UHGV virus genome: UHGV-0298424
Strand: one strand, 5' to 3'
Source of the DNA: a virus
Length of the DNA stretch: 64,000 nucleotides
The translations under genes were made by a program, and so were the position numbers. The notes under the pieces were generated by a model that made no database searches, had not been told where the DNA came from, and was given only the letters and a program-made list of their open reading frames with translations. Positions 13,890 to 37,166 of the stretch are shown piece after piece (positions within the stretch are counted from its first letter, which is position 1; every line of letters begins with the position of its first letter).

Positions 13890-13987
13890 CGAGCTTTACC
13901 TTTATGGAATTGTCTCGGTCATAAGGTTTGGGTGAACTGTAAAAAGACTTTACTATGTAACCCTGACTTATAATCCGAGGTTTTAGA

Positions 13988-14743: not shown

Positions 14744-14755
14744 AAAAGTAAAGCT

Positions 14756-14781
14756 ACCCCTAGACCACACGGTCTAGGGGT
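14756..14781. terminator. bidirectional terminator between convergent genes
   Basis: ACCCCTAGACC-ACAC-GGTCTAGGGGT flanked by A-run and T-run. Confidence 0.55.
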
Positions 14782-14788
14782 AAACTAT

Positions 14789-15688: not shown

Positions 15689-15713
15689 TTTAATGCTCCT
15701 AAACACTTTTAGC

Positions 15714-16640: not shown

Positions 16641-16699
16641 GGTATATTCTCCTAAAATGGTTAAAAATAAAGTTACCCTAGCCGAAGCTAGGGTGTCTA

Positions 16700-17188: not shown

Positions 17189-17189
17189 T

Positions 17190-17714: not shown

Positions 17715-17716
17715 GG

Positions 17717-18259: not shown

Positions 18260-19002
18260 TATACGTACTCCTGATAAATTGGCCGACCCCGATCTTCTCG
18301 AATCTGGCAGTATGTTACAACAATACCGTTAGGGATTTGTGCGCCGCTGTCTTCAAGGTAAATAACGCCCGTAGCTTCACAGAGATAAAACGACCACAAT
18401 CGTGAGATACCAAGCCGTGCGTTCTCGTAGTGACTGAATGGCCAGAAACCACAGTGAATCTCATCATAGTCTCCCCGTTCTATCCCGTAAGCAATCATTT
18501 CTTTTTCCCACAACGTACATTCAGCGTCGTAAGTCGAAAACCAGAAACCAACGAGATTCTTTGTCCGCTTAACGTTCATTAAGTCGTTATAAATGGGAAA
18601 GAGTGCTTTATTGAAATTTTCTAACATCTCTGGAGAGAATAGAAAATTCATGTAGTATTCTAGCCATTGATAAACGGCTTCCCAGACATCTTCAGAAGAG
18701 AAATGTTCGAATACGGCGTCATCGCAATCGTAGTTATCGAAGATCCCTGAGAGATCTATTTCGACGACGCCGCGAAGGTCAAAGTTTCTGTTGGTATTGA
18801 CAGCGTCAATAACCTCAGCGATGAGACGAGTAAAGACGATTGTGCAGGCGGTTTGTGCGGTATAAAAGAATTCTCCTTGTACGGTTGACCACTTCGGGTC
18901 CTTCAAATGTTCATTGAAGTATTGTGGCCAAATTTTATAAAAGATTCCCTCGAACAACGAGGGATTGATACGTTGTAATTGAGGGACATAAACTTTTAGC
19001 AT
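18259..19002 (-). CDS. hypothetical protein
   Basis: 247-aa ORF. Confidence 0.4.
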   Translation of the reverse strand: MLKVYVPQLQRINPSLFEGIFYKIWPQYFNEHLKDPKWSTVQGEFFYTAQTACTIVFTRLIAEVIDAVNTNRNFDLRGVVEIDLSGIFDNYDCDDAVFEHFSSEDVWEAVYQWLEYYMNFLFSPEMLENFNKALFPIYNDLMNVKRTKNLVGFWFSTYDAECTLWEKEMIAYGIERGDYDEIHCGFWPFSHYENARLGISRLWSFYLCEATGVIYLEDSGAQIPNGIVVTYCQIREDRGRPIYQEYV

Positions 19003-19038
19003 TCTAATAACTCCAATGGTGTTACACCTGGATAATAT

Positions 19039-19707
19039 CTATCTAAGAATATTTTTAATGAAAAAAGGATCGGCTGTAAACTCCTTCACTTGTGAGTCAT
19101 AACCCGAATGTATTTGATCGCTACTGAGCAAATACTGGTCTAGGTCGTGCGGAAGAATCCAAGAATCACCTTGCTTAAAAATACCATAATCTGCTGTTCC
19201 TGCGGAAAAAATGATTTCCTCTGGAAACGAATAGACACGGCGTAAGGCAAGATCGGATGGCTTTAACACGATTAATCGAACGGGATGTTGACTGACTGCC
19301 TCTTTAATAAACTGTTCACGATTAAACCAAATTATTTTTTCGGGGTAAGTTTCGAATTCAGCCCATGCCCGCGTGATAACTAATTTGGAAATCTTTCTCA
19401 ATTCTTCAGAACGCTCTGCGTAGCCGATGCACTCCTTGCGTACTTCATGATTTTCTATCGATGTTGTGAATTTTTGGAATAGGTGTTGTTGGAAAAAGCC
19501 GTTCTCCGGGATATCACAACCCGCGTTGTATAGTGCAATGATCTCCCACAACAACGAAAGAGAAAACACAAATGCTAACTTTTCCACAACTTCCCAATCT
19601 TCGGAGTAAGGGGCTTTAAAGCCCCAATACTGCCGTGCGTTATACATAAAGTGAGTTTGTAAAAACCGAGGGGCTTTTGACAAGACCTCACTATAAACGA
19701 TCAGCAT
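19039..19707 (-). CDS. hypothetical protein
   Basis: 222-aa ORF. Confidence 0.4.
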   Translation of the reverse strand: MLIVYSEVLSKAPRFLQTHFMYNARQYWGFKAPYSEDWEVVEKLAFVFSLSLLWEIIALYNAGCDIPENGFFQQHLFQKFTTSIENHEVRKECIGYAERSEELRKISKLVITRAWAEFETYPEKIIWFNREQFIKEAVSQHPVRLIVLKPSDLALRRVYSFPEEIIFSAGTADYGIFKQGDSWILPHDLDQYLLSSDQIHSGYDSQVKEFTADPFFIKNILR

Positions 19708-21221
19708 TCAAGCTCCTTATCCGTCAATATTCGTTTGTTTGAATAATAGCCGCACCACAAACCATGATATTTTTCCCCGATATAAACCAACGCGTATTCG
19801 ATATACTGCCGTTCTGGACGACGTACAGCCACGTAAAACCGCCCTTCCGGTTCTTTGATACGGTTGATTTCCGTACGCGTCGGTATGTCGATACCTCGAG
19901 TAAGGATAGCTTTAACCTTGTTTTTACTACCAGGGATCTTGATGGTTACGTCAAAACCTTTATCTACGTTACGATAAATGTCTTTCTTCGGCTTACCTTT
20001 CTCATCGTAAAGTACGTCAGTAATGTCATTCAACACTACTGAGTTTTTCCCTTCCATGGCATCGCGTAACCAACCTGCAAGCTCATCACGAATCGCAATA
20101 CAACGATAAGATAATAGCGCAGGACGAAGAATTCGTGTAATCGAAAGATCTTCAAACATCCACAGGTTTTTGTCTTCACTAAAATGCATCCGATCGATAG
20201 GAATGCCGTTAGCAGCGGCTTCTGCGAACTTCTTGCGCTTTACGAATAAGTTAAAAACAACGGCGATTGGATCAAATTGACGTAAACGGGGCACCCCTTC
20301 CCACGCTTTCGCAGAATGGGTATTTACCAACTCGTATACGTTATCCCACGGTTCTTTGGTAAACATTACGCAGAATTGTGCATCTGGAATGTACTTACCA
20401 ACGAAGACGATATCATCCTTCTGTTTTGCGTGGTTTCCACCGAACATGTAATAAAGTTTATTACCGTTAACTGTAACAGTGGGGTGAGGCTCGTTCACCA
20501 TCGGGTAACAGAACTTCGTAACACAGATATCGGGAAAAGTGGACAAATTGACACCCTCACCAACAACTTCCGGTTGCTGTTCTTCCTCAGGCAGTTCGTC
20601 TTTTGACCAATACGGTGTATAGTCTAACCCCTCCCCTCGGGCAGAGATAATTGAGCCTTTCCGCGCTAACTCGTCTGCGCGTTCGTTTCCATAACGTCCA
20701 GAGTGGCCTTTAATTTTAAGGACACGAACACCTTTCCCTTCTTTCTTTAAGCGCTGTTTAACCACCCACATCCGTTGGATTAATTCCAGATTCGCAATAG
20801 GTGTACCGTCCGCACGACGCCAACCACGTGCTGCCCAACCATCAATCCAGTCGTTATACGTGTTGACAACGTAAGATGCGTCGATATAGATAACGTAGTT
20901 TTTGGCAACGAAGGGGGCGTGTTCGAAGACGGTCAGGAAAGCCACGAGTTCTGCAACGTCGGAGTGTGACATTTTTGGTACAGGAACAACTCCGTCAATA
21001 AACTCCACGGTTTCTGGTAAAGGCGGAAGTTTTTCATCTTTGTTTATCTGGCGGTATCCTGACGTCGTAATCCCCTCGGGAATAGTGGGATGGCGGTAAA
21101 CCCGACCATCCTCAATCGCTTCACGATTAAATAAGTATCCATGAATCCCCGCCCCTGTACCGAGCGGGGAAGTCAAATGGCTACCGTCCGTGTAAATTAC
21201 TGCAACATCAACGTTCTTCAT
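19701..21221 (-). CDS. ribonuclease H domain protein with about 320-aa C-terminal extension
   Basis: N-terminus IYTDGS, ELVA, IDASYV, KGHSG..NERADELAR matches RNase HI catalytic motifs; C-terminal half not recognised. Confidence 0.65.
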   Translation of the reverse strand: MKNVDVAVIYTDGSHLTSPLGTGAGIHGYLFNREAIEDGRVYRHPTIPEGITTSGYRQINKDEKLPPLPETVEFIDGVVPVPKMSHSDVAELVAFLTVFEHAPFVAKNYVIYIDASYVVNTYNDWIDGWAARGWRRADGTPIANLELIQRMWVVKQRLKKEGKGVRVLKIKGHSGRYGNERADELARKGSIISARGEGLDYTPYWSKDELPEEEQQPEVVGEGVNLSTFPDICVTKFCYPMVNEPHPTVTVNGNKLYYMFGGNHAKQKDDIVFVGKYIPDAQFCVMFTKEPWDNVYELVNTHSAKAWEGVPRLRQFDPIAVVFNLFVKRKKFAEAAANGIPIDRMHFSEDKNLWMFEDLSITRILRPALLSYRCIAIRDELAGWLRDAMEGKNSVVLNDITDVLYDEKGKPKKDIYRNVDKGFDVTIKIPGSKNKVKAILTRGIDIPTRTEINRIKEPEGRFYVAVRRPERQYIEYALVYIGEKYHGLWCGYYSNKRILTDKELEC

Positions 21222-21223
21222 TC

Positions 21224-21958
21224 TTAATCCCTGGTTAATTGATCACGAATCTGCGGCGCAACATACTCGCCAGTTTTCAGTTCTTCGTGACAGGCTTTGG
21301 CGCGTTCAAACCCGTATTGGCGGGTGACCAAAGCGAGGTGATAAATACGTGCCGTGGTGTAGGCTTCTTTTGCTGCATCCCACATTGCGTGGTGCTCAAA
21401 AGCGGGCTTACCGCGTGTCCAATAAACTTGCTCTACCGTTAAGTCGGGTTCGAAACCAAACGCAAAAGCTAAACGCTCTGCGGTACGATCGCTATCCAAC
21501 GCACTAAATTTACGGAACTTCCCTGGCGGAATATCGCATTGTGCGAAAGCGTTTATGAAAATCGGCGCATCGAAGTCGGGACCGCGCATGGTAATAACAA
21601 ACTCATGTTTTGCGGTGATCTCCCCGAGCCATTTTTGCATCGCCCACAGAGCATCAGGCAATGCTGTTGTTCCACCCCATGCTTCCGCATAGGCTTCACG
21701 AGACGGCGCGTATTCAGGTTCGCCTTTACCTTCCCACCATCCAACCGTTTGTGGGTCTTCGTGGAAAATAGCTTTTGCTTTAGGGTCATTAGGATCGATA
21801 CGGATGTATGAGGAACCAACCATTTTCAAGGTAGGGACGTCAAACGCCACTAAACCTGCACTCAACAGATAAGCGTCGGGACGTAACGATTTGGTTTCTG
21901 CATCGGCACCAATAACCAACGTCGGTGTGTACGGGGTGATAATTTTTGGGTAGGTCAT
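21224..21958 (-). CDS. putative 3'-5' exonuclease (DEDDh-like)
   Basis: VIGADAET (D-x-E) near N-terminus and HHAMWDAAKEAY (H-x-A-x-x-D-A) near C-terminus. Confidence 0.5.
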   Translation of the reverse strand: MTYPKIITPYTPTLVIGADAETKSLRPDAYLLSAGLVAFDVPTLKMVGSSYIRIDPNDPKAKAIFHEDPQTVGWWEGKGEPEYAPSREAYAEAWGGTTALPDALWAMQKWLGEITAKHEFVITMRGPDFDAPIFINAFAQCDIPPGKFRKFSALDSDRTAERLAFAFGFEPDLTVEQVYWTRGKPAFEHHAMWDAAKEAYTTARIYHLALVTRQYGFERAKACHEELKTGEYVAPQIRDQLTRD

Positions 21959-22012
21959 GTTGAATTCTCCTGTTAGTCTACATTAAAATAGTCGTAAACG
22001 TTAAAAAGAAAG

Positions 22013-22042
22013 GCCCTCCTGTACCTCGAAGGGTACAGGAGG
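22013..22042 (-). terminator. intrinsic terminator hairpin
   Basis: CCCTCCTGTACC-TCGAA-GGGTACAGGAGGG; T-run on minus strand. Confidence 0.5.
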
Positions 22043-22047
22043 GAGTG

Positions 22048-22506
22048 TCAGTACAAACACGATGTCAAGTATTGGTTATACGAATCGAGCAGTGCCTGAC
22101 GGTCGGAACGGTAATTCCACAACAAATTATTGAGTTTACGCGATAAATCACGGCTAATCTCCTGGGCCGTTAAAGAGCTCTCATCAAGAAACATGCGCTC
22201 AGGTACAACGTGTAATTTCGGTAACTCATAGCGTTCACAAAGTGGAGCCAACATTGGTGGACTCCAGCCACGTTTAGCGGCTTGCTGGTTTAAATTTCGT
22301 GTGTAGACATAAACGTAATAAGCATAGGTGTTGACATCTGCAACATACTCACGCATTGCATTCTTGTCAATTTTCCAATTCACCATTATTGGCGGTTCAG
22401 GAGGAAGTTCCAGTGGTCTATAAGCTGGACGTTTAACTTCGTCACCGTAGCTATTACTCACCAACCCCACGAACACTACCATGATGAATAATAGCATTTT
22501 CATCAA
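22048..22506 (-). CDS. secreted hypothetical protein
   Basis: N-terminal signal peptide MMKMLLFIMVVFVGLVSNSYG; no lipobox Cys. Confidence 0.45.
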   Translation of the reverse strand: MMKMLLFIMVVFVGLVSNSYGDEVKRPAYRPLELPPEPPIMVNWKIDKNAMREYVADVNTYAYYVYVYTRNLNQQAAKRGWSPPMLAPLCERYELPKLHVVPERMFLDESSLTAQEISRDLSRKLNNLLWNYRSDRQALLDSYNQYLTSCLY

Positions 22507-27232: not shown

Positions 27233-27742
27233 TTAGAAGAACGGCTGATTTGGAATGACAGCGTACTCTAAAATGAACATGTGCTCTGGGGCGTCTTCTT
27301 TACGCCAGACTTTGTGTGTTAACACAAGTTTTTCCAGAATCGTTAGAAAACTACGCTGGCAGTATGTGTTTTCGCCAAGTAGCAGTTTCTGAAGTTCTAC
27401 AGTAGCGTCCATATACGCCTGTTTAAAGACTAGGCTACGGTTATACTGTCCGGTAAAATTCCAAAGCAAGACTTTCCCTTCTTCGGTTTCTTTTACCGTT
27501 GGACGTAAACCACAAATCCACAGCAAGGCAAGGTTGACGTTCCAGTCAAACTCTAAACCTTCCTCTTCGTCATCACCGAATGCTGTAGGTAAAGCATCGT
27601 AAAATTCGTGTTTCTCTGCGAATTCTTCATCCGATTTAATCTCGTCTTCGATGCTGCTTCGGACGATACCGTAAATGTCTTTCGCGGTTAGTTGTGCGGC
27701 TTTTGTAATGCCTTTATACCAATCGGTTACAACGATGCTCAA
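27233..27742 (-). CDS. hypothetical protein
   Basis: 169-aa ORF overlapping the upstream gene by 4 nt. Confidence 0.4.
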   Translation of the reverse strand: MSIVVTDWYKGITKAAQLTAKDIYGIVRSSIEDEIKSDEEFAEKHEFYDALPTAFGDDEEEGLEFDWNVNLALLWICGLRPTVKETEEGKVLLWNFTGQYNRSLVFKQAYMDATVELQKLLLGENTYCQRSFLTILEKLVLTHKVWRKEDAPEHMFILEYAVIPNQPFF

Positions 27743-28464
27743 AGGGTAACTCCTCTATTGATTGGAAAACTCGTGTTTATCGTATCCCAAATTTTACTAA
27801 CTTCCGCCAATTGAATCTGACGTGATGTTTTCTTCGCAAACGCAAGCTGACGTGGGGCCGAGCCCACAACAACAGGCACATCGATTTTCGCGCTATAGAA
27901 CGCGGCATCTTTCATAAAGCCTGCCATTTCTCGTTGTGCTGCTCGAGATTTGCTTTTGATTCGCGTGTGAGCGCCACTTTCACCCCAGTGGTAAGCTAAC
28001 GCAACTTCAGCCATGGTGGGCTTGCGTTTGAGTCGTTTGGTTAACCCCTTCTCAAGATGTTTAACATACGCGGTAGCCAGCAAAACAGCGTTACGCGGAT
28101 TATACAAATCGGCGTTCTGACTAAGACCTAATTCTTTTCCATAAAGCTTTAGCAGACTACGCTTGGTACTTGGAAGCATCTGTACCAGGCTGTGTGCCCG
28201 TGAGCTTTTGTTGTAAGCCTTGGGATCAAAACGTGATTCGCGATAAATCAGCGTAATCATCAGCTTAGGATCAACGCCTTGCTTTCGTGAGATTTCCACA
28301 ATTAACGGACTGACTTTTTCGAACCGATGTTGGATTTGTGTAAACTCACGCTGATGTTTAGTTTGTGGCGTTGACGTTGACGCCTGTGCGTTAAACGCGA
28401 AAAGTGTTACCAGTAAAAGAAAGAAGATACGAAACATTTTGTTTCTCCAGTTGGATTTATACAT
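27739..28464 (-). CDS. secreted lytic transglycosylase (SLT domain)
   Basis: signal peptide; ESRFDPKAYNKSSRAHSLVQM resembles the SLT E-S...GLMQ catalytic motif, followed by AYVKHL. Confidence 0.55.
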   Translation of the reverse strand: MYKSNWRNKMFRIFFLLLVTLFAFNAQASTSTPQTKHQREFTQIQHRFEKVSPLIVEISRKQGVDPKLMITLIYRESRFDPKAYNKSSRAHSLVQMLPSTKRSLLKLYGKELGLSQNADLYNPRNAVLLATAYVKHLEKGLTKRLKRKPTMAEVALAYHWGESGAHTRIKSKSRAAQREMAGFMKDAAFYSAKIDVPVVVGSAPRQLAFAKKTSRQIQLAEVSKIWDTINTSFPINRGVTL

Positions 28465-28537
28465 TTCCGTATTCCGTAAGACGAAATGACGGCGCGGACA
28501 GCTAATACTCCTTTGTTGTGTGCCCTAATGATAATAT

Positions 28538-29098
28538 CTATTTAAAAGAGTTTGGAATTAATGACTCTGCTTCTCGGTACAGCTTATCGGGTAAGTATAA
28601 CGTGTAGTGTTGCCTCCTCGGTTCAAGTTTTTTGTAAAGCCACAAGAAGATTTCTTGCCTTTCCCAGGAATCTAACCACCCATTTGCCATTCCCAGTGGA
28701 GGGATAGCAACGCTGGTATCCAGTTCCTCAACACAATCTGCTAATGCGGTAATGCCCGCAGTAACATAAGAAACCTTGGACTTTAAACGCCAATGTGTTT
28801 TCGTGGGGAGCAAGATGCACTTTTCATCAGGGTAAACGTAAACACTTCCAATCTTGATTTCGTCTTCGCGACACCGCTTACGGTAATCTTGATAAAGGTT
28901 GGGGTAGCGTTCACGGCACGCCAGTGCAATACCGCGACCCATTGCTCCTACACAGTTAATGGTAACGACTTTATAGTCTTCGGGCGCATTAAAAAGATCG
29001 TTACCAATTTTAGATTCTTTACGTACCGTTAACATAACGAATCGGCCATAGTTGATGTGTAGTATTAAAACGTGTACCGCCGATTGATAGCTCGACAA
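28538..29098 (-). CDS. macrodomain protein (TARG1/OARD1-like ADP-ribose hydrolase family)
   Basis: GNDLFNAPEDYKVVTINCVGAMGRGIALACRERYP and AIPPLGMANGWLDSW resemble recalled TARG1 signatures; true start may be ATG at 29035. Confidence 0.5.
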   Translation of the reverse strand: MSSYQSAVHVLILHINYGRFVMLTVRKESKIGNDLFNAPEDYKVVTINCVGAMGRGIALACRERYPNLYQDYRKRCREDEIKIGSVYVYPDEKCILLPTKTHWRLKSKVSYVTAGITALADCVEELDTSVAIPPLGMANGWLDSWERQEIFLWLYKKLEPRRQHYTLYLPDKLYREAESLIPNSFK

Positions 29099-29122
29099 GT
29101 ATAGCGATATATGTTTTACCCA

Positions 29123-29491
29123 TTAGCGATTTTTTGTAATCCATTGTTTGACCGCCGTTTCTAAACCTTCGTGTTGTAAGCCCAGGCGTTGCATAGTCAG
29201 TGCCAAGTTGAGCGTGTGGACAACCTGTTCACGGAACTGATGATCGTTCATGCGGTCCCAGACCTTCTCTACTGAAATATTGTGTTTCCACAGCAAATAA
29301 GCTTCGCGACACGATGCACGACGAACCAAGCTGGGTTTAACAAAAGGTAGCTCGATTTCAGGTAAGTAACCTAAAAGCTTAACTAGCTCTGTTACCTGCG
29401 TCTTACCAAAGTCGTCGCACTGATAACAAATTTGTAGAATGTCAATTTCATTCAACGGTATGCCGTAAATTGATGGGTTCACTGTGAACAT
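29123..29491 (-). CDS. hypothetical protein
   Basis: 122-aa ORF. Confidence 0.4.
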   Translation of the reverse strand: MFTVNPSIYGIPLNEIDILQICYQCDDFGKTQVTELVKLLGYLPEIELPFVKPSLVRRASCREAYLLWKHNISVEKVWDRMNDHQFREQVVHTLNLALTMQRLGLQHEGLETAVKQWITKNR

Positions 29492-29693
29492 TCGTATTCT
29501 CCTCAGGCTCGAAATATGGTTCGGGTGGCAACGTCCCTAAAGCCCCTTGGATACAAGCCGTCAATGAAGGTTTGCCGAAACAGACCTTACCTATTGTCCC
29601 TACATTGGGATGTTGTAAGAACGCTTTTGCACGTTCGTATTCTTTCCAACAAATACTCGTATCCAAACCACCCACTCCGTACGATTTTAACAT
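29448..29693 (-). CDS. hypothetical Cys-containing small protein
   Basis: start at ATG 29693 with AGGAGA SD; avoids overlap with the GNAT gene. Confidence 0.35.
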   Translation of the reverse strand: MLKSYGVGGLDTSICWKEYERAKAFLQHPNVGTIGKVCFGKPSLTACIQGALGTLPPEPYFEPEENTNVHSEPINLRHTVE

Positions 29694-29760
29694 AATTAGC
29701 TCTCCTGACGTAAATTTCTCACACTCATAGTGAGGTACGCCAAGAGAGCTTTTATTGTTT

Positions 29761-30204
29761 TTAGAATGTTTTGCTAAAATCGACCCACTCACGATCGTGT
29801 GAGTAAACCGCCTGATAGCCGCGTCGGATGAAATACTCTTTTGCTTCTTTACATTTCGCATACATGCCAGTAACAATTTCACCGAAAACTTCATCAGCGG
29901 CAATTGCTTTGAAAATCTCTTTCATTACACCCCGCTGACGATAGTCTGGGAGCACGTATACCGAACGTATCTTAAGTGAACCGTTACGATTCCGATAACT
30001 ACAGTATCCTACCGCGACATCATCCTGATACACCAGAACTATGCAGTTACCTTCGATCAGTTGCCGAGCTTTTAATTTCGGTACCGACGTTTTTATTTTT
30101 AGTAATGTAGCCTGGTGGTCCAAGTAACGGTAGTGTAGTTTGAGTAAATCGGCAGCTTGTCGTTCGCCGACTTTAGAAGATGCGTTCAACAAATAAATTT
30201 CCAT
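29761..30204 (-). CDS. GNAT-family N-acetyltransferase
   Basis: about 147 aa; YRQRGVMKEIFKAI resembles GNAT motif A; ATG at 30204. Confidence 0.45.
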   Translation of the reverse strand: MEIYLLNASSKVGERQAADLLKLHYRYLDHQATLLKIKTSVPKLKARQLIEGNCIVLVYQDDVAVGYCSYRNRNGSLKIRSVYVLPDYRQRGVMKEIFKAIAADEVFGEIVTGMYAKCKEAKEYFIRRGYQAVYSHDREWVDFSKTF

Positions 30205-30235
30205 TTGCAAACCTTAGAGACGCAAAAAAGTAAAA

Positions 30236-30364
30236 TTAAAACCAACGCGCGATGACGAATGCCGCTGCGGCTAATATGGCCGTGGTGATTATCAACCCAC
30301 CCCATGAAAGTTCCGCATCGTATAATGCGGATATCGCTACATTCGTAGTGTTTATCGAGGTCAT
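30236..30364 (-). CDS. small single-pass membrane protein (42 aa)
   Basis: not in the 60-aa track; ATG at 30364 with AGGAG SD; own translation MTSINTTNVAISALYDAELSWGGLIITTAILAAAAFVIARWF. Confidence 0.4.
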   Translation of the reverse strand: MTSINTTNVAISALYDAELSWGGLIITTAILAAAAFVIARWF

Positions 30365-30380
30365 TTTCTGCTCCTAGTAA

Positions 30381-30400
30381 TACCCTCACGCCGGAGGGTA
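30381..30400 (+). terminator. hairpin with plus-strand terminator geometry
   Basis: TACCCTC-ACGCC-GGAGGGTA followed by TTTTCCGGATTATTT on plus strand, inside the minus-gene block. Confidence 0.3.
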
Positions 30401-30531
30401 TTTTCCGGATTATTTGGGTGTTTAGTCTTCAAACGCCCATCTGTGTTGTTTAACCAGCAAGTTTAAACCTTTACCGATTAACCACATCGCACCAAGTGTT
30501 AACAGAACCCCTTCAACCATATTCCCTTCTC

Positions 30532-30717
30532 CTAATTCCGCCATTCGCATTCACGTTGACGCCAAATTGAACCCCATGATAGTTTAATCAGATAAGATGA
30601 AACTACCCATAAAATCATCACCACGCAAAACATGACATAAAGAACCGCTAGAATGGACATGAAACCAAACCCCGCCGCGTCCATAAAACGACGGAACCAA
30701 TCAGTTTGCATAAACAA
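30532..30717 (-). CDS. small membrane protein
   Basis: 61-aa ORF with hydrophobic helix FGFMSILAVLYVMFCVVMILWVV; overlaps the Rad50-like stop. Confidence 0.4.
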   Translation of the reverse strand: MFMQTDWFRRFMDAAGFGFMSILAVLYVMFCVVMILWVVSSYLIKLSWGSIWRQRECEWRN

Positions 30718-33205
30718 TTTTTACTCCTTCGTTATACACCGCAGGCAATGTCACTCCTTCCGGTTCGATGACACAGTACGATGCTTCATTAAGTTTAGAA
30801 TGGACCTCAGCTTCGTGGGAAACTACCAAGAGTTGTGAAAATTCTCCCGAGTTTGCTAACGTTTTAATAAAGCCGACCAGGTTATTACGGTGTTCCTCGT
30901 CCATGCCTTCCGAAGGCTCATCCAAAAGCAACGGAAACTGATGCAACTTCAGCGCTTTGTACGCAGTCAGTCTGAACATCAGATTAAATATAGCACGCTG
31001 TGCCTTAGACCCTTTACGCACGTCAGGAACAGGCTCAGGGTGCGTTTTTAGCTGGACAGGAAAAGTATAATCCAAATCACCGTCAGTGAGATCACAGGGC
31101 ATAACACGCATGGGGTACGTCCAGACCTGTTCGATATAACGCGTCATTAACTCTGTGATTCTAACGATAGCGTTGTAAAAATACTTTCTAAGTACACCCT
31201 TTTCTGGCGAGAAGGCTTGAATCATCAGTTTGTTATTGAACTGTTGGGCTTGTAAGTCTGTAAGTTCGCGCTCCAAACTGTTGAGCTGATTCAATTCATT
31301 TTCCATCTGACGATAACGTTCGCGTGCAGTTGTAAAAGCATCCAGCTTCCCTTCCCGCACTCGTAAGAGTTCCTCGACGACCGTATTTGTCAACGTAACC
31401 TTAACATCACTCTCTAACCGTTCGAATAACGCACTGAAATCATCTACAGCACGTTTAACATTCACTAGATAGGTAAGTGTCGTGTTAGCCAGTTCGTGCT
31501 CTCTACGACGCATTGAGAGCATCTCTGTGGCTTTACCTAACCGTGACTGTTGGAAGGCGATCTTTTGTTGTAAAGCACCATCGACGTTACCAACGGCCGC
31601 CACGGCATCCTGCCATTCTTTTTCCGCTTTCACTAACCGTTGTCGGGTTTCATGGTACTCAATAGCAGAGTACAACTCACCGTCAAACGCTGCGCATAGA
31701 CTCCCGAACTGCTCGCGAGACTCTGTGAAAACGTTACGTTCTTGCAAACGCTTAAAGAACATACTCAATACAGGGTCCTTTGAATACGTCAGTACAATCT
31801 CACGAACCTGCCGCATATAAGTTACATCAGATTCTAATTCAACACGATCGCGTAATAAGGTCTCTAGCTGTGTTTGAAGTTCCGTCCGTTGCTGCTGTTG
31901 ACCACGAATCGATGACTCGAGTTCAGGTAAAGAACGCGTAACACCTGGCCGAAACTTAAACCGACACTGCGGACAATCCACTTCTGCTGTTTCTAAGTAG
32001 TGGTTACGTTCGTGATTTAAATTCTGTAAAACGTTCTCCACTCGCTGGAGTCTATCCCGTAATCCTGCGGTTTTTTGATCCATCACCAGAAGGCGTTCTT
32101 CCAAAACATTGAGTTTCTCGGTTGAATGAATAGCGTCCAGTGTTGTTCCCAACCGTTGTCCCCAAACACGCGCATCGGTAGCCGCACGAAGTTGGTCTAA
32201 ACTGACGTTATCGTTAAATAAACCCGGAAAGAGATGCTCGGTGTCCCATTTGGTAAGTAACTCACGTAAACGTGCCAGTGTATTCTTGAGACCTTCGTGG
32301 TTCCGCATCAGGTAGTCTTGTCGTGTTGACTCATCCATCAATAACGACAAGTCTTTATTCAACATCGATACCTCTGTTTCGGTAGAAACGACGGCTTCGC
32401 GGGCTGTCGCTTCATTTTGTCGGGCGGCCAGTATCTGTTCATCAGTAGGCAACCCACCACGATGTTGTAATATTGCGTCGATGGTTGGACCCAAGCCGTT
32501 TAATAAGGCTTGGATTGTTTCGATCGTGACGGCACGATTTAATCCTGGCAACTGTTCGATTTCTCGGTTCAGTTCACGTAAATCCGATTCCAAACCTTTT
32601 AATCTCGTTGCTAATTGTTGTCGTTCTTCCTCGTTCTCAATAACGCGCGTCCGTAATTCGGCAATCTTACGACTGGTGATTTCAATACCCCCATTTAAGG
32701 CGGTAAGGTTTTTACGCAAACGTTGATAAAACCCTAACGCGTATGTAAGATCAGAGGTACTTAAACGGTAAAACCATTTACGGCGTAATTCGGTTCCCGC
32801 ATCGGTTAACAAAACCTCACCATTTAATAGTTCTTTAATTTCTTTCGTAATACCCGTGATTTCTTCAACACGGGAGTTGTAGACCTTCGCATTACCTTGC
32901 TCGACGATCTTTGCTCCCGTGGTCAGATTTTCAATATCGCAAACCAAAGAGTTACCTTTACGGGCAACTTTGAATCGATACCGTTGATCACCAACTAAAC
33001 AGTAGTTCGTGTAAGAACCGCCGTCTCTGAATTCAGTTTTAGCCGGTGCTAAGGGTAAGAATACAGACAGTAGACTGGTTTTCCCGCAACCGTTCCCACC
33101 CAGGATAATTGTTGTTGGAGACTGGATAGTGAAATCGAAAGTTTCAATTTCATGTAATCCCATCCCCGTAAAACCTTTGAGTATAATGCGTTCAACTTTT
33201 AGCAT
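30701..33205 (-). CDS. Rad50/SbcC-like SMC-family ATPase with zinc hook
   Basis: start at ATG 33205 after GGAGGTGGG; N-terminal Walker A GGNGCGKTS, long coiled coils, central CPQC hook, C-terminal LLLDEPSEGMDEEH signature/Walker B. Confidence 0.65.
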   Translation of the reverse strand: MLKVERIILKGFTGMGLHEIETFDFTIQSPTTIILGGNGCGKTSLLSVFLPLAPAKTEFRDGGSYTNYCLVGDQRYRFKVARKGNSLVCDIENLTTGAKIVEQGNAKVYNSRVEEITGITKEIKELLNGEVLLTDAGTELRRKWFYRLSTSDLTYALGFYQRLRKNLTALNGGIEITSRKIAELRTRVIENEEERQQLATRLKGLESDLRELNREIEQLPGLNRAVTIETIQALLNGLGPTIDAILQHRGGLPTDEQILAARQNEATAREAVVSTETEVSMLNKDLSLLMDESTRQDYLMRNHEGLKNTLARLRELLTKWDTEHLFPGLFNDNVSLDQLRAATDARVWGQRLGTTLDAIHSTEKLNVLEERLLVMDQKTAGLRDRLQRVENVLQNLNHERNHYLETAEVDCPQCRFKFRPGVTRSLPELESSIRGQQQQRTELQTQLETLLRDRVELESDVTYMRQVREIVLTYSKDPVLSMFFKRLQERNVFTESREQFGSLCAAFDGELYSAIEYHETRQRLVKAEKEWQDAVAAVGNVDGALQQKIAFQQSRLGKATEMLSMRRREHELANTTLTYLVNVKRAVDDFSALFERLESDVKVTLTNTVVEELLRVREGKLDAFTTARERYRQMENELNQLNSLERELTDLQAQQFNNKLMIQAFSPEKGVLRKYFYNAIVRITELMTRYIEQVWTYPMRVMPCDLTDGDLDYTFPVQLKTHPEPVPDVRKGSKAQRAIFNLMFRLTAYKALKLHQFPLLLDEPSEGMDEEHRNNLVGFIKTLANSGEFSQLLVVSHEAEVHSKLNEASYCVIEPEGVTLPAVYNEGVKIVYAN

Positions 33206-33258
33206 ACCCACCTCCATAAAGACGGAGTGTGGTGTAAAAAGAAAAAAAAACAGAGAAA

Positions 33259-33280
33259 GGGAGAACCCGAAGGTTCTCCC
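33259..33280 (-). terminator. intrinsic terminator hairpin
   Basis: GGGAGAACC-CGAA-GGTTCTCCC with 9-A run upstream (T-run on minus RNA). Confidence 0.55.
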
Positions 33281-33285
33281 AAACG

Positions 33286-33894
33286 TTATTTGGTATACGG
33301 CTGATAACCCATTGAAGTCCAATAATCGATATTCTTCGCGTTTTCTACCCAAACCTGTCCCGCCTTTGTGGCTAAGACTTCCATTGTCAGTGCACAGATC
33401 AGGTTTGTTACCGGAATGCAATTTCCTGGCGTAACGTCGTCCAGATAAACCGGGTATAAAAACGGTGATTTAATGGATTGGTACGGATAAGAATAGTGAT
33501 TGCCGACCTTCCACCCTTCCTCTACAGGACAGAGATTAAACGTACGTGTTTCTGGAACTGCGTTTTCAGAGATCCAGTTAACAACATCGGCTTTAATTCG
33601 GTCGTGGTCGATATAGTAGAACACGACACGTTGTGGGATACTTGTGGTACCAGCCGGGTCTAAAGCCTCCAACGCCTTGAAAGGCGTCGTTAACAATGTT
33701 GAACTGTTCTCAAGTGCGTAAACCAATTTTTCGTAAGCAGTCGGCGTTTTACGTTTAAAATACTCCCGTAAGCGTGGATACGCCAGGAAGCCCTCTACTT
33801 CCTCTTCCATTAAGTCGATGAATAAAGGCGTATGCGAATAACGCTCTGCATTTTGCATCGCTTCAAGAAAACGAACTAATGTAATTTCGTTCAT
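33286..33894 (-). CDS. hypothetical protein
   Basis: 202-aa ORF upstream of the Rad50-like gene; no metallophosphatase motifs seen. Confidence 0.4.
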   Translation of the reverse strand: MNEITLVRFLEAMQNAERYSHTPLFIDLMEEEVEGFLAYPRLREYFKRKTPTAYEKLVYALENSSTLLTTPFKALEALDPAGTTSIPQRVVFYYIDHDRIKADVVNWISENAVPETRTFNLCPVEEGWKVGNHYSYPYQSIKSPFLYPVYLDDVTPGNCIPVTNLICALTMEVLATKAGQVWVENAKNIDYWTSMGYQPYTK

Positions 33895-33924
33895 CTGGTC
33901 TTTCCTTTTAGATCAAAAAAAGAA

Positions 33925-33941
33925 GCCCCGAATAAACGGGG
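33925..33941 (-). terminator. intrinsic terminator hairpin
   Basis: GCCCCG-loop-GGGGC; T-run on minus strand. Confidence 0.4.
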
Positions 33942-33950
33942 CCGGGCTAA

Positions 33951-34427
33951 TTATAGCCCTAAGTGCGTGAGTGATAAAATAGGCTGTGTTTCACCTTTAA
34001 TCGTCGCGAAGGAACGATACATTTCTGCGTTACTTGAAAAAACTTCGTTAGCAACGATACATTCACCCGTCTCTAAAGAAAGGAGATAAATGTAGTCGCT
34101 CCATACGCTTTGTACCAATACCCATTCGAGCGCGGTGTCATTTTCGCGTGTTGTCCGCAGGTGGTGAAAGTAAGGCCGGATTGCGTCGACCGCTGCATTA
34201 AAACGGCGATGATAAATTCGGGTTAAATCAAATGTCCAGATTGTTTCCAGGTCAACTGGGTGTAATGTGCGCACAGTGTCGATAATCGTCGACTGATCGT
34301 TAAGGCGTGCGGCTTCAGCGATGCGCAGCAGTTTCCAGGCCACCGTTAAGTTGTGACGAATTTGTTCAGGTTTAGCCGACAGGTCATGATGAAATTGCGC
34401 AGCTTGATAGACGTTAGATAATTGCAT
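33951..34427 (-). CDS. hypothetical protein
   Basis: 158-aa ORF. Confidence 0.4.
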   Translation of the reverse strand: MQLSNVYQAAQFHHDLSAKPEQIRHNLTVAWKLLRIAEAARLNDQSTIIDTVRTLHPVDLETIWTFDLTRIYHRRFNAAVDAIRPYFHHLRTTRENDTALEWVLVQSVWSDYIYLLSLETGECIVANEVFSSNAEMYRSFATIKGETQPILSLTHLGL

Positions 34428-34464
34428 TTTAATACTCCTTTAGGTAAAACATGTCGTAAAAAAG

Positions 34465-34485
34465 GACCCCGGACATTCCGGGGTC
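34465..34485 (-). terminator. intrinsic terminator hairpin
   Basis: GACCCCGGA-CAT-TCCGGGGTC; T-run on minus strand. Confidence 0.5.
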
Positions 34486-34495
34486 AAGACTACAC

Positions 34496-34885
34496 TCAAT
34501 GATCTAATTCGATAGCGCCAGCCATCTTGCCCCGTTCTTCGATAACGATCAGATAACGGTCGCGAGATTTGCTTTTAGCGAGAGTTAAGACAACAGTAGG
34601 GTCGCACGTTTTCGTGGTGATAGGAAGAACCTCTCTTGCAACGGAATCGAGTAGAAAGTAATAACCTGCGGGACACATTGTGCCACCATCAGCTTTTACC
34701 AGAATATAGCGCCCGTCTGCGCCGACTTCTTGGCAGATTGTTTCACCGACTTCACAAACTTCAAACCCCGGGGGATTATACTGATAATCGGTATTGTTGT
34801 TTGAGGTTAGCAGTAAATCATTAACCTGGGTAGATGCCGCTACACTCAGGGAGAAGAAGAATGCTAAAGCGCAGATGAGACGCAT
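34496..34885 (-). CDS. small secreted protein 1
   Basis: signal peptide MRLICALAFFFSLSVAAS; 6 Cys in mature part. Confidence 0.45.
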   Translation of the reverse strand: MRLICALAFFFSLSVAASTQVNDLLLTSNNNTDYQYNPPGFEVCEVGETICQEVGADGRYILVKADGGTMCPAGYYFLLDSVAREVLPITTKTCDPTVVLTLAKSKSRDRYLIVIEERGKMAGAIELDH

Positions 34886-34895
34886 GAGTTACTCC

Positions 34896-35306
34896 TTAAA
34901 TTTTAAGTTTATCCATAGCTACAACGATAGGTTTTTCCGAAGTGTCTAATATCCCTACCATCGGTACACCATTTTTGATTTCGAAGAACGGTTTGTTATT
35001 GCCAGAGCACAAACGTTTGTCGTTGTATTCGAGACGTTGTGCCTTCCACGTTTCGAGGTTGAGTACGGACATAGGGCTGTCGTAGCACCAGGCCCCACCC
35101 TGCTCAACGATGAACACGTATCTGCTACCTTTGTATTTAAACAGGCTCTTCGCCTGACAGTACAGGCCGTCAATTTCTGTACAGTAGAAATCGTCGGCAC
35201 TATTGACGTACTTAATTCCAGCTGGCAACTGTGTTATTTTTGCTGATACGTTAACAGAGAACAGAATAGCAATTGCAATGAGAAGAGTGTTGATGATAGT
35301 TTTCAT
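34896..35306 (-). CDS. small secreted protein 2
   Basis: signal peptide MKTIINTLLIAIAILFSVNVSA. Confidence 0.45.
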   Translation of the reverse strand: MKTIINTLLIAIAILFSVNVSAKITQLPAGIKYVNSADDFYCTEIDGLYCQAKSLFKYKGSRYVFIVEQGGAWCYDSPMSVLNLETWKAQRLEYNDKRLCSGNNKPFFEIKNGVPMVGILDTSEKPIVVAMDKLKI

Positions 35307-35316
35307 GATAAACTCC

Positions 35317-35802
35317 TTAGTATTTAGATTGTTCTACGTACTTCTTAACCAGATAACCGAATTCAGCAACGCCGATTTCGCCGAACCAAACCAGATAACC
35401 GGGGTCGATGTTGTAGTAATAACCGACGAGTTTCTTGGTGTGTGGGTTGTATAGCGTTACGATATATTCCCAGCCACAAGCGTTAGCTTTACAACCACCA
35501 CTTTCAATCCAGATTTTGTTGTTGATATTTACCGGATACATGTTACCGCCAGGGCCATCCATGTAACCTTTAGAGCCGAACATTCCATCCAGTCCCACCG
35601 GATCTAGTGTTTTATCAACAACACCTTTAAATGACTTATCGGTATCGTACAAGTCGTTGATGTTTGGACACGCATTTGGCTGACCTTCCCGAGCGTTCCC
35701 ATCGCAGGTAAGCAATTCGTCTACGGAGGCCGCATCTACAGTAGGTGTGGCACCGATAAACAAGAAAACCAGAAAGAACATCAGTGTATGTAAACGTTTC
35801 AT
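35317..35802 (-). CDS. small secreted protein 3
   Basis: signal peptide MKRLHTLMFFLVFLFIGATPTVDA. Confidence 0.45.
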   Translation of the reverse strand: MKRLHTLMFFLVFLFIGATPTVDAASVDELLTCDGNAREGQPNACPNINDLYDTDKSFKGVVDKTLDPVGLDGMFGSKGYMDGPGGNMYPVNINNKIWIESGGCKANACGWEYIVTLYNPHTKKLVGYYYNIDPGYLVWFGEIGVAEFGYLVKKYVEQSKY

Positions 35803-35820
35803 TGTGACTACTCCTTTAGA

Positions 35821-36213
35821 TTATTCAGCAGGACGATTTAAAGTAACACGGCCAATTAATTCGGCGTTATGAAAGAAGTCCACAGCGGTATAGTTACCAA
35901 CTGATAACGGATGTATGCTAACCGACATGACTTTTGGTTGTTCACAGGCGATATCGGTCAAACGTTGGTAGACTTGTGCACGGGTGTCAGCAATGAGTAA
36001 TCCTGTACATGTTTCACCACGTACTAAACGATAAACTTGCAGTTTACCGAAACTGCGCATTAACGTAGGTGTCTCATCCGGGTTGATAATCGGTGAGTCA
36101 GGAGCGGGTTCGTAATGGTTGACATCCGAACCGCCGAAAGCGTAAGTGCCAGTAATGCCGATTGCACAGAAAACAATGATAGTATAAAGTATAGTTCTAA
36201 TATTCATTTTCAC
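35821..36213 (-). CDS. small secreted protein 4
   Basis: signal peptide MKMNIRTILYTIIVFCAIGITGTYA. Confidence 0.45.
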   Translation of the reverse strand: MKMNIRTILYTIIVFCAIGITGTYAFGGSDVNHYEPAPDSPIINPDETPTLMRSFGKLQVYRLVRGETCTGLLIADTRAQVYQRLTDIACEQPKVMSVSIHPLSVGNYTAVDFFHNAELIGRVTLNRPAE

Positions 36214-36235
36214 GCACTCTAAAAAAGATTAATAC

Positions 36236-36697
36236 TTATTTGTTAGGACGGGTGTGTCCACAGTTCTGGAAGAAAGTTTCAGATAGACGTTCGCCTTCTA
36301 CGGTAAAGTTAGCGGCGTCATTACCATTGATACTCACGCTGAAATTTTTGGCATTACCGATAGCATTAACGAAAGCAACCCAAGCGAGTTCTGCTTTGTC
36401 ACTACCATCCACGGTAGGGATGTTATAGGTTTTGCCGTTTACGACAATATCCATCGTGTTATCTTCAGCGTTAGTTGCACCTACAGGTTCCCCGTAATAC
36501 CAAACCATGCGACCGTAAAATTTGCGATTCGCGGTTTCAGTGTCACAGTTGATAGACAGTCCGTTTCCGGTGGTGTCTTCGATTTCGTAAACTGCCTGAC
36601 CAGGGTTCTGTATTTGTTCCCAGCTGTTGATAGCGGCGTGTGCAGTATTGAATCCGAAAGTTAAAATGGTTACTAAGAACGCGATAAAAGTTTTCAT
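36236..36697 (-). CDS. small secreted protein 5
   Basis: start at ATG 36697 with AAGGAG SD gives signal peptide MKTFIAFLVTILTFGFNTAHA. Confidence 0.45.
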   Translation of the reverse strand: MKTFIAFLVTILTFGFNTAHAAINSWEQIQNPGQAVYEIEDTTGNGLSINCDTETANRKFYGRMVWYYGEPVGATNAEDNTMDIVVNGKTYNIPTVDGSDKAELAWVAFVNAIGNAKNFSVSINGNDAANFTVEGERLSETFFQNCGHTRPNK

Positions 36698-36743
36698 TGA
36701 AATGCTCCTTCGGGTTATGGGAAAGTTCCCACAAATCATGAAA

Positions 36744-37166
36744 TTAAATGAGAAAGTGGGCAACTCTTTTAATCTGTCTATAACTATCATCGATACCTCT
36801 TATTATTTCCAGACGTTCTTCTGAAGAAAGGCATTGGTTAATGTCTTCGTCAAGATTGAACAATGTCATGAGTTTTGCAATCGAAACTGCCAGGTTGTCC
36901 GATAGCTCGTTGTTTTTACGCCATTCTTCGTTACGGAAAATACAGATAAGGTCTTTCACCTGGTTTTCAGCGAGCGGTTTGGCTAACTGTGCGTCGCGCT
37001 GTTCGAGAAGGTATGCTTCGTTGGTAAGTAATTGTTTCAGGTCTTCTGGGTAAAGGGCAGCGCGAGTAACGATCAGTAATACAACAAACGGGTCTTTGAA
37101 CAATTCGTTTTTCATCTTTAGTTCTCCTAAAATGGTTTCGTTAAGTGAGAGTAACTGAACTCTCAC
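36744..37166 (-). CDS. hypothetical protein
   Basis: 140-aa ORF; conserved 21-bp motif and hairpin immediately upstream. Confidence 0.4.
   Translation of the reverse strand: MRVQLLSLNETILGELKMKNELFKDPFVVLLIVTRAALYPEDLKQLLTNEAYLLEQRDAQLAKPLAENQVKDLICIFRNEEWRKNNELSDNLAVSIAKLMTLFNLDEDINQCLSSEERLEIIRGIDDSYRQIKRVAHFLI

What the first reader, a model, noticed from the sequence alone, without database searches (positions are those of the whole stretch)
30701..33205. Rad50/SbcC-like ATPase with zinc hook but no adjacent Mre11/SbcD
Walker A, long coiled coils, CPQC hook and C-terminal signature/Walker B identify an SMC/Rad50-family protein. In T4-like phages the gene 46/47 pair is adjacent, but neither neighbour here shows metallophosphatase motifs. 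Either the nuclease partner is elsewhere, or this is a different SMC-like function.
Basis: partly seen in the sequence, partly recalled or inferred. Interest (0 to 1): 0.4.

Follow-up and report, generated by a model that had tools for sequence, protein, structure and literature searches.

The report
Jumbo-phage SbcC/Rad50 ATPase, nuclease partner distant
This gene encodes the SbcC/Rad50 DNA-end-processing ATPase of a phiKZ-like (nucleus-forming) jumbo phage; its SbcD/Mre11 nuclease partner lies roughly 90-130 kb away in near-identical genomes, an arrangement already published for this phage family, so the finding is real but ordinary.

Summary
Window 30701-33205 (- strand) is an 834-aa ORF. 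It has a Walker A motif, two roughly 250-residue helical arms, an invariant CPxC hook at the apex, and a C-terminal signature/Walker B/H-loop head. Neither neighbour is a metallophosphatase.

The protein classifies as Rad50/SbcC. It matches PHROG 'SbcC-like' at 2.9e-90, and its best profile and fold matches among solved structures are Rad50.

The window comes from a Chimalliviridae jumbo phage. The closest isolates are Erwinia phages Asesino and phiEaH2 (about 70% aa identity) and Salmonella phage SPN3US (58%).

- An SbcD/Mre11 homologue occurs in 290 phage records, with almost the same host-genus breakdown as the 290 records that carry the ATPase.
- In a 220.8-kb IMG/VR contig (97.7% nt identity to the window over 8.5 kb), SbcD lies about 131 kb from SbcC. 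Two other relatives show about 86-87 kb.
- The window holds no SbcD homologue.

Thomas et al. 2016 (PMC5105663) already described SPN3US gp186 as an essential SbcC subunit and stated that the SbcC and SbcD genes are "drastically separated" in SPN3US, phiKZ and relatives.

Verdict: already known, low interest. Three small membrane-peptide ORFs directly downstream are a minor side observation.

The parts
30701..33205 (-). SbcC/Rad50-like ATPase gene (834 aa plus stop)
   Evidence: ORF. phrog_77 'SbcC-like' 2.9e-90. Pfam SMC_N 2.1e-8, below the gathering score. Best PDB profile hits are all Rad50. 70% aa identity to Asesino gp207 and 58% to the SPN3US SbcC.
33211..33215 (-). Shine-Dalgarno GGAGG, 5 nt upstream of the ATG at 33205
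   Evidence: Read directly from the sequence.
33259..33280 (-). Terminator-like hairpin (GGGAGAACC-TTCG-GGTTCTCCC, then a T-rich tail) between the 202-aa ORF and SbcC. It suggests SbcC is not co-transcribed with its upstream neighbour.
   Evidence: Pattern scan and sequence. It is a consensus match only; its function was not tested.
32795..33205 (-). N-terminal half of the ABC head (residues 1-137), including Walker A GGNGCGKT(S) at 33074-33100
   Evidence: G-x-N-G-x-G-K is invariant in A3 and A5. AF2 secondary structure. Coordinates.
31991..32794 (-). Ascending helical arm (residues 138-405)
   Evidence: AF2 model with pLDDT 82.8; helices 138-405 with short breaks.
31964..31975 (-). Zinc-hook motif CPQC (residues 411-414) at the apex of the arms
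   Evidence: The only CxxC in the protein. C411, P412 and C414 are invariant in 13 homologues at 18-87% identity; C411 and C414 are invariant and P412 nearly invariant in 23 further homologues. It lies between the two arms in the model. Zinc binding was not tested.
31214..31930 (-). Descending helical arm (residues 426-664)
   Evidence: AF2 model.
30704..31213 (-). C-terminal half of the ABC head (residues 665-834). Signature variant SKAQ at 30998-31009, Walker B LLLDE at 30917-30931, H-loop SH at 30815-30820.
   Evidence: Invariant S733, L759, D762, E763, H772, Q791, S796 and H797. Aligned to the Rad50 signature, Walker B and H-loop. Coordinates.
30532..30717 (-). Small hydrophobic peptide ORF (61 aa from TTG 30717, or 59 aa from ATG 30711). 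It overlaps the SbcC stop and is possibly co-transcribed. Whether it belongs to the system is uncertain.
   Evidence: phrog_16515, 2.6e-4. It is conserved at the same position in relatives with 52-99.6% SbcC identity. The SPN3US equivalent, gp187, was noted by Thomas et al..
30422..30520 (-). Second small hydrophobic peptide ORF (32 aa, RBS AGGAGAAGGG). Whether it belongs to the system is uncertain.
   Evidence: It is called as a gene on ENA contigs.
30236..30364 (-). Third small hydrophobic peptide ORF (42 aa, RBS AGGAG). Whether it belongs to the system is uncertain.
   Evidence: It is conserved in L004, L005 and L010.

Best explanation
The gene encodes the SbcC/Rad50 subunit of the phage's own SbcCD (Mre11-Rad50-type) DNA-end-processing complex. 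The phage is a phiKZ-like (Chimalliviridae) jumbo phage of the SPN3US/Erskinevirus branch.

Shown here:
- The bipartite ABC-ATPase head, the two roughly 250-residue antiparallel helical arms, and a conserved CPxC hook.
- A best match to Rad50/SbcC.
- Co-occurrence with a divergent SbcD/Mre11-type metallophosphatase encoded far away in the same genomes. The distance is about 131 kb on the nearest contig and about 86-87 kb in two other relatives.

Inferred from E. coli SbcCD, archaeal and eukaryotic Mre11-Rad50 and T4 gp46/gp47:
- Two SbcC protomers join through the zinc hook.
- ATP binding engages the two heads around DNA and positions the SbcD dimer to cut and resect DNA ends or hairpins.
- This feeds recombination-dependent replication together with the UvsX-like recombinase encoded at 12078-13574 in the same window.

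The absence of an adjacent nuclease gene reflects the scattering of functionally linked genes that is typical of this phage family. It does not indicate a different function.
For: Family assignment:
- phrog_77 'SbcC-like subunit', 2.9e-90 over the full length.
- The profile of 13 homologues hits Rad50 chains first, from 2.4e-14.
- The best NCBIfam hits are Rad50 families.
- The best Foldseek hit is C. thermophilum Rad50, 8.6e-18.
- Walker A, CPxC, signature serine, Walker B and H-loop are invariant.
- The AF2 model shows the arms and the hook.

Partner:
- SPN3US SbcD lies at 21020-22168 and its SbcC at 168900-171407.
- SbcD homologues occur in 290 phage records, with nearly the same genus breakdown as the 290 SbcC records.
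- The SbcD alignment keeps the motifs DxH, GDxxD, SHDH, MHG and [GH]HDH.
- Contig IMGVR_UViG_3300045988_113438 carries SbcC at 150922-153423. That SbcC is 831/834 aa identical to the window's, and the flanking DNA is 97.7% identical over 8.5 kb. The same contig carries SbcD at 19137-20270 (phrog_100, 3.7e-60).

Literature:
- SPN3US gp186 is an SbcC subunit and essential by amber mutation. SbcC and SbcD are 'drastically separated' in SPN3US, phiKZ and relatives (PMC5105663).
- SbcC and SbcD are practically universal in jumbo phages (PMC7824862).
- phiKZ orf165 tolerates no transposon insertions (PMC12676376).
Against: - No biochemical or interaction data exist for this protein or any close homologue.
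- The SbcD partner was located on near-identical contigs, not on the window's own genome, which I could not retrieve beyond the window.
- The signature motif is non-canonical (SKAQ instead of LSGG[QE]).
- By eye, the position expected for the Q-loop glutamine is Asn. I did not test this rigorously.
- The Pfam SMC_N and NCBIfam Rad50 scores are below the curated cut-offs, so the protein is a divergent member.
- Foldseek also gives strong hits to Smc5/6, condensin, LmuB, MukB and JetC, so the fold alone does not discriminate.
Confidence: 0.9

Rival explanations
1. The protein is a stand-alone SMC-like protein that organises or condenses phage DNA, for example inside the phage nucleus or during packaging. 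It acts independently of the SbcD nuclease.
For: The gene is not linked to SbcD in any sampled relative. Foldseek gives strong matches to Smc5/6, condensin and MukB. The arms are longer than those of T4 gp46, as noted in PMC5105663.
Against: It has a CxxC hook and no SMC hinge. The best sequence-profile matches are Rad50, not SMC. I did not search for kleisin or MukEF-like partners. The phyletic co-occurrence with SbcD is essentially complete, 290 versus 290 records.
Confidence: 0.05
2. The protein is a Lamassu-type (LmuB-like) or other defence or counter-defence SMC-like ATPase carried by the phage.
For: PADLOC LmuB model at 1.1e-18 over almost the full length. Foldseek hits to Lamassu complexes, 3.7e-12.
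Against: The match is far weaker than the SbcC-like PHROG match, 2.9e-90. PADLOC contains no SbcC model, so LmuB is simply its nearest SMC-like relative. Neither ORF flanking the gene matches any Pfam or PADLOC family, so no LmuA-type effector is evident there. The gene belongs to the conserved genome of phiKZ-like phages and is essential in SPN3US and phiKZ.
Confidence: 0.02
3. The protein is an RloC-like enzyme: a Rad50-like, hook-bearing ATPase fused to its own nuclease domain, which would need no separate partner.
For: RloC carries a Rad50-like zinc hook and ATPase (paper cited within PMC7824862).
Against: The protein ends with the ABC head. There is no extra C-terminal domain and no nuclease-family match. 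The only such hit is a PIN_12 match at E=0.018 inside the coiled coil, which is noise.
Confidence: 0.01

Closest known systems
Salmonella phage SPN3US gp186 (SbcC subunit) and phiKZ ORF165, paired with SPN3US gp27 / phiKZ ORF065 (SbcD)
   Same: The proteins are orthologous: 58% aa identity to SPN3US over the full length, the same 834-836 aa size, and conserved local gene order that includes a small transmembrane ORF directly downstream. The split arrangement is also the same, with SbcD far away in the genome.
   Different: They differ only in sequence. This phage is a distinct lineage, about 70% aa identical to Erskinevirus and 58% to Seoulvirus. Its DNA has no megablast match in the phage collection.
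T4 gp46/gp47 (phage Rad50/Mre11)
   Same: The inferred role is the same: an ATP-dependent DNA-end-processing complex that feeds recombination-dependent replication. Both have a bipartite ABC head and coiled-coil architecture (established knowledge; discussed in PMC5105663).
   Different: The T4 genes are clustered, whereas here they are about 90-130 kb apart. The region between the head halves is about 300 residues longer than in gp46, and BLASTP detects no similarity (PMC5105663).
E. coli SbcCD and archaeal/eukaryotic Mre11-Rad50
   Same: Walker A, signature motif, Walker B, H-loop, an antiparallel coiled coil with a CxxC zinc hook, and a metallophosphatase partner.
   Different: sbcD and sbcC form one operon in E. 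coli. This protein is shorter than SbcC (834 vs 1048 aa). Its signature motif is SKAQ rather than LSGG[QE]. Scores against the curated Rad50/SMC models are below their cut-offs.

Membership tests
Rad50/SbcC ATPases (Mre11-Rad50 / SbcCD complex) | N-terminal Walker A (P-loop) of a split ABC head | tested here: met
   GGNGCGKT at residues 36-43. G-x-N-G-x-G-K is invariant in A3 and A5.
Rad50/SbcC ATPases (Mre11-Rad50 / SbcCD complex) | C-terminal ABC signature motif, Walker B, D-loop and H-loop | tested here: met
   S733-K-A-Q736 aligns with the Rad50 S-G-G-[EQ] motif; the serine is invariant. LLLDE at 759-763, D769, and S796-H797 are conserved. The signature motif is a non-canonical variant.
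Rad50/SbcC ATPases (Mre11-Rad50 / SbcCD complex) | Q-loop glutamine | tested here: inconclusive
   By eye, the expected position ('LLNGE', around residue 128) is N, T, S or L in the family, not Q. No reliable structural alignment was made.
Rad50/SbcC ATPases (Mre11-Rad50 / SbcCD complex) | Long antiparallel coiled coil between the head halves | tested here: met
   The AF2 model (pLDDT 82.8) has helices at 138-405 and 426-664.
Rad50/SbcC ATPases (Mre11-Rad50 / SbcCD complex) | CxxC zinc hook at the coiled-coil apex, rather than an SMC hinge domain | tested here: met
   CPQC at 411-414 is the only CxxC in the protein. Both cysteines are invariant in both alignments and sit between the two arms. 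Metal binding is not testable here.
Rad50/SbcC ATPases (Mre11-Rad50 / SbcCD complex) | Closest sequence and fold relatives are Rad50/SbcC rather than SMC, RecN, RecF or ABC transporters | tested here: met
   phrog_77, 2.9e-90. PDB profile hits 1-7 are all Rad50. The top NCBIfam hit is Rad50. The top Foldseek hit is Rad50.
Rad50/SbcC ATPases (Mre11-Rad50 / SbcCD complex) | An Mre11/SbcD metallophosphatase partner encoded in the same genome | tested here: met
   The window has none. A partner is present on the 97.7%-identical contig and on two further relatives, and in 290 phage records with almost the same genus breakdown as the 290 SbcC records. The window's own complete genome was not available.
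Rad50/SbcC ATPases (Mre11-Rad50 / SbcCD complex) | Physical complex with the nuclease and ATP-dependent nuclease activity | not testable with these tools
   This requires biochemistry.
T4-type gp46/gp47 or sbcDC operon organisation | ATPase and nuclease genes adjacent or in one operon | tested here: not met
   The neighbours are not metallophosphatases. SbcD lies about 86-148 kb away in relatives.
SMC / MukB condensin-type proteins | Hinge dimerisation domain at the coiled-coil apex | tested here: not met
   The apex is a roughly 20-residue CxxC loop with no globular hinge.
SMC / MukB condensin-type proteins | Kleisin or accessory subunits encoded in the genome | not tested
   I did not search the window or related genomes for kleisin or MukEF-like partners.
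Lamassu LmuB | Encoded next to an LmuA effector (and LmuC) as a defence operon | tested here: not met
   The two ORFs flanking the gene are a 202-aa protein of unknown function, with no Pfam or PADLOC hit, and small membrane peptides. The LmuB model match, 1.1e-18, is much weaker than the SbcC-like match.

The most novel reading that the evidence does not exclude
In the SPN3US/Erskinevirus branch, the SbcC ATPase may work together with the three small membrane peptides encoded directly downstream. The first of them overlaps the SbcC stop codon. This would tether or regulate end-processing at a membrane or at the phage-nucleus periphery. In addition, the non-canonical signature motif (SKAQ) and the apparent loss of the Q-loop glutamine may give the enzyme an altered ATPase cycle. 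Either would be a lineage-specific twist on the Mre11-Rad50 machine.
Probability: 0.08. Interest if true: 0.35.

Novelty: already known. Interest (0 to 1): 0.1.

Why it matters
It matters little beyond correct annotation. The gene can be named the SbcC/Rad50 subunit of the phage SbcCD complex. The 'missing' nuclease reflects the scattered gene order typical of phiKZ-like jumbo phages, not a new biology. The family is conserved and essential in nucleus-forming phages, yet no SbcCD complex from them has been characterised biochemically. The real open questions are therefore how the complex works, where it acts during infection, and whether the small downstream membrane peptides take part. This window adds no new handle on those questions.

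Tried and rejected
- Megablast of 30000-34500 against the phage collection gave no match. The relatives were found only at protein level.
- A Pfam scan of 60 window ORFs looked for a hidden metallophosphatase. None appeared among the 25 best-ranked families at E<=0.01. Pfam also detects the genuine SPN3US SbcD only weakly (Metallophos E=0.032), so this scan alone was not decisive. I therefore ran tblastn with the SPN3US SbcD against the window, which gave nothing below E=1.
- The 244-aa 'exonuclease' about 9 kb downstream (21224-21958) is not Mre11-like. It corresponds in position to the gene annotated as exonuclease/endodeoxyribonuclease in SPLA5c and Asesino, and the window ORF set contains one Rv2179c-like 3'-5' exoribonuclease match.
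- I tried to look up the SbcD of the nearest contig by exact sequence, to show that it shares a contig with the window's exact SbcC. The tool turned the request away. The window's own genome could therefore not be checked beyond 64 kb.
- The LmuB (Lamassu), SMC/condensin and RloC readings were rejected; see the rival explanations.
Full report
**1. What is at the coordinates**

Window 30701-33205 on the - strand is an 834-aa ORF. The purely mechanical ORF runs on to a TTG at 33421, but that start would overlap the upstream 202-aa gene.

Three things support the ATG at 33205:
- A GGAGG Shine-Dalgarno sequence lies 5 nt upstream, at 33215-33211.
- The ATG follows a terminator-like hairpin at 33280-33259 (GGGAGAACC-TTCG-GGTTCTCCC, then a T-rich tail).
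- Every homologue starts at the equivalent 'MLKVERI' and is 834-840 aa long.

**2. Motifs and architecture**

| Feature | Residues | Sequence | Conservation |
|---|---|---|---|
| Walker A | 36-43 | GGNGCGKT | G-x-N-G-x-G-K invariant |
| Hook | 411-414 | CPQC, the only CxxC | both Cys invariant |
| Signature | 733-736 | SKAQ (variant) | Ser invariant |
| Walker B | 759-763 | LLLDE | L759, D762, E763 invariant |
| H-loop | 796-797 | SH | invariant |

In an alignment of 13 homologues from phages as distant as phiKZ-type Pseudomonas, Ralstonia, Aeromonas, Vibrio and Serratia phages (18-87% identity), the following are invariant: G-x-N-G-x-G-K, C411-P412-x-C414, S733, L759/D762/E763, H772, Q791 and S796-H797. 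Both cysteines are again invariant in a second set of 23 database homologues. The hook is therefore not a chance CxxC.

An AlphaFold2 model built on those 23 sequences has a mean pLDDT of 82.8. It shows a head made of residues 1-137 and 665-834. Two long, interrupted helical arms span 138-405 and 426-664, and a short loop at 406-425 carries the CPQC.

**3. Family**

- PHROGs gives phrog_77 'SbcC-like subunit of palindrome specific endonuclease' at 2.9e-90 over the whole protein.
- Pfam gives SMC_N at 2.1e-8, below its gathering score.
- The best NCBIfam hits are Rad50 families, also below their cut-offs.
- A profile of the 13 homologues searched against all PDB chains returns Rad50 ATPases as the first seven hits, from 2.4e-14 to 2.5e-10.
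- Foldseek of the model against the PDB puts Chaetomium Rad50 first (8.6e-18). Smc5/6, condensin, Lamassu, MukB and JetC follow.
- PADLOC, which has no SbcC model, gives LmuB at 1.1e-18.

**4. Source organism**

There is no near-identical DNA in the phage collection. tblastn finds the protein in 290 phage records, all of them jumbo phages of Pseudomonas, Erwinia, Salmonella, Vibrio, Serratia, Aeromonas, Klebsiella, Ralstonia and others.

The best matches are Erwinia phages Asesino, Stratton and phiEaH2 (about 70%) and Salmonella phage SPN3US and relatives (about 58%). Their genera, Erskinevirus and Seoulvirus, belong to the family Chimalliviridae, the nucleus-forming phiKZ-like phages.

Gene order around the ATPase matches Asesino and SPLA5c. 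Downstream in those phages, and in the window, lie:
- a GNAT acetyltransferase
- a Macro-domain protein
- a transglycosylase
- a 244-aa ORF in the position of the gene those phages annotate as exonuclease/endodeoxyribonuclease
- an RNase H-domain protein
- a UvsX-like recombinase

The exact 834-aa protein also occurs on many metagenome contigs of up to about 225 kb.

**5. The 'missing' nuclease**

Neither neighbour is a metallophosphatase.
- The 61-aa ORF is a hydrophobic peptide.
- A Pfam scan of 60 window ORFs shows no Metallophos match among the 25 best-ranked families.
- tblastn of the SPN3US SbcD against the window gives nothing below E=1.

The partner exists elsewhere.
- SPN3US encodes an 'SbcD-like subunit' at 21020-22168, against SbcC at 168900-171407.
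- The SbcD protein keeps the phosphoesterase motifs DxH, GDxxD, SHDH, MHG and [GH]HDH, although Pfam detects it only weakly.
- Its homologues occur in 290 phage records, with almost the same host-genus breakdown as the 290 SbcC records.

| IMG/VR contig | Length | SbcC | SbcD | Separation |
|---|---|---|---|---|
| 3300045988_113438 | 220,786 bp | 150922-153423 | 19137-20270 | about 131 kb |
| 3300029126_000001 | 225,000 bp | 53684-56185 | 143113-144246 | about 87 kb |
| 3300045988_078609 | 224,831 bp | about 130.8-133.3 kb | about 43.7-44.8 kb | about 86 kb |

On contig 113438 the SbcC is 831/834 aa identical to the window's, and the flanking DNA is 97.7% identical over 8.5 kb. Its SbcD matches phrog_100 at 3.7e-60. 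If that genome is circularly permuted, the separation the other way round is about 90 kb.

A 64-kb window centred on SbcC therefore cannot contain SbcD. In eight more distant relatives that I inspected, no SbcD is adjacent either.

**6. Already published**

- Thomas et al. 2016 (J Virol; PMC5105663) identified SPN3US gp186 (phiKZ ORF165) as the SbcC subunit and showed by amber mutation that it is essential.
- They assigned gp27 as SbcD. [quoted passage not shown]
- They also noted the longer inter-head region compared with T4 gp46, and the small transmembrane ORF directly downstream.
- Iyer et al. 2021 (PMC7824862) list SbcC and SbcD as practically universal in jumbo phages.
- phiKZ orf165 tolerates no transposon insertions (PMC12676376). 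Both orf165 and the orf065 nuclease are listed among the core-genome genes in the antisense-oligomer screen and show phenotypes there (PMC12571901).

**7. Mechanism**

Shown here are the domain architecture, the conserved catalytic and hook residues, and the co-occurrence with SbcD.

Inferred from E. coli SbcCD, Mre11-Rad50 and T4 gp46/47:
- The ATPase dimerises through the hook.
- ATP drives head engagement on DNA ends or hairpins.
- SbcD then carries out nucleolytic processing.
- The product supplies substrates for UvsX-type recombination-dependent replication.

The upstream terminator-like hairpin and the gene's own ribosome-binding site suggest that SbcC is transcribed separately from the 202-aa gene. 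This is a pattern match only.

**8. Residual oddities**

- The signature motif is SKAQ rather than LSGG[QE].
- By eye, the expected Q-loop position is Asn in this branch. This was not tested rigorously.
- Three small hydrophobic peptide ORFs with good ribosome-binding sites follow SbcC, at 30532-30717, 30422-30520 and 30236-30364. They are conserved across the SPN3US/Erskinevirus branch but not in phiKZ-level relatives.

These support only a low-probability lineage-specific variation.

**9. Verdict**

The arrangement is already described for this phage family, so novelty is 'already known' and interest is low.

Noticed in passing
window 30236-30717 (- strand): Three consecutive small hydrophobic, probably transmembrane, peptide ORFs lie directly after SbcC. 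They are 59-61, 32 and 42 aa long, each has a Shine-Dalgarno sequence, and the first overlaps the SbcC stop codon. They are conserved in relatives with 52-99.6% SbcC identity but absent at phiKZ-level distance. Only the first has been remarked on in the literature (SPN3US gp187).
   Followed up: partly
window 33259-33280, 33924-33943, 34465-34485 (- strand): G+C-rich hairpins followed by T-runs sit in each of three successive intergenic gaps upstream of SbcC. This suggests that these genes are separate transcription units. The region has 10 terminator-like sites, against 4.6 +/- 2.4 in shuffled sequence.
   Followed up: no
window 34496-36790 (- strand): Five consecutive ORFs of 129-184 aa each have a hydrophobic, signal-peptide-like segment at or near the N-terminus. 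I did not search any of them against a family library individually. They look like a cluster of small secreted or periplasmic proteins upstream of the SbcC region.
   Followed up: no
window 14789-15784 and 15714-16640 (- strand): Two adjacent, overlapping ORFs (331 and 308 aa) are paralogues (BLASTP E=7e-20, 23% identity). They share the C-terminal motif AAHIRRAHW+R.W.G...W.P. Their function is unknown.
   Followed up: partly
window 12078-21958 (- strand): A recombination and nucleic-acid-processing neighbourhood lies 9-19 kb downstream of SbcC. It comprises a UvsX-like recombinase (12078-13574), an RNase H-domain protein (19701-21221) and a 244-aa ORF (21224-21958) in the position of the gene annotated as exonuclease/endodeoxyribonuclease in SPLA5c and Asesino. 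The Pfam scan of the window ORFs includes one Rv2179c-like 3'-5' exoribonuclease match, which I attribute to this ORF from its D-x-E motif and the relatives' annotation. It is not Mre11-like.
   Followed up: partly
[not shown]
   Followed up: partly
L034 3340-5973 (IMGVR_UViG_3300045988_113438, about 18.5-21.1 kb): The distant SbcD gene overlaps both the upstream 222-aa gene and the downstream 278-aa gene (an ATGA-type overlap). The order is the same as in SPN3US. The 278-aa protein of unknown function could be a translationally coupled accessory factor of the nuclease.
   Followed up: no
window 27739-30210 (- strand): A GNAT acetyltransferase (29761-30210), a Macro-domain protein (28538-29098) and an SLT lytic transglycosylase (27739-28464) lie just downstream of the SbcC block. 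The order matches Asesino and SPN3US-type phages.
   Followed up: no
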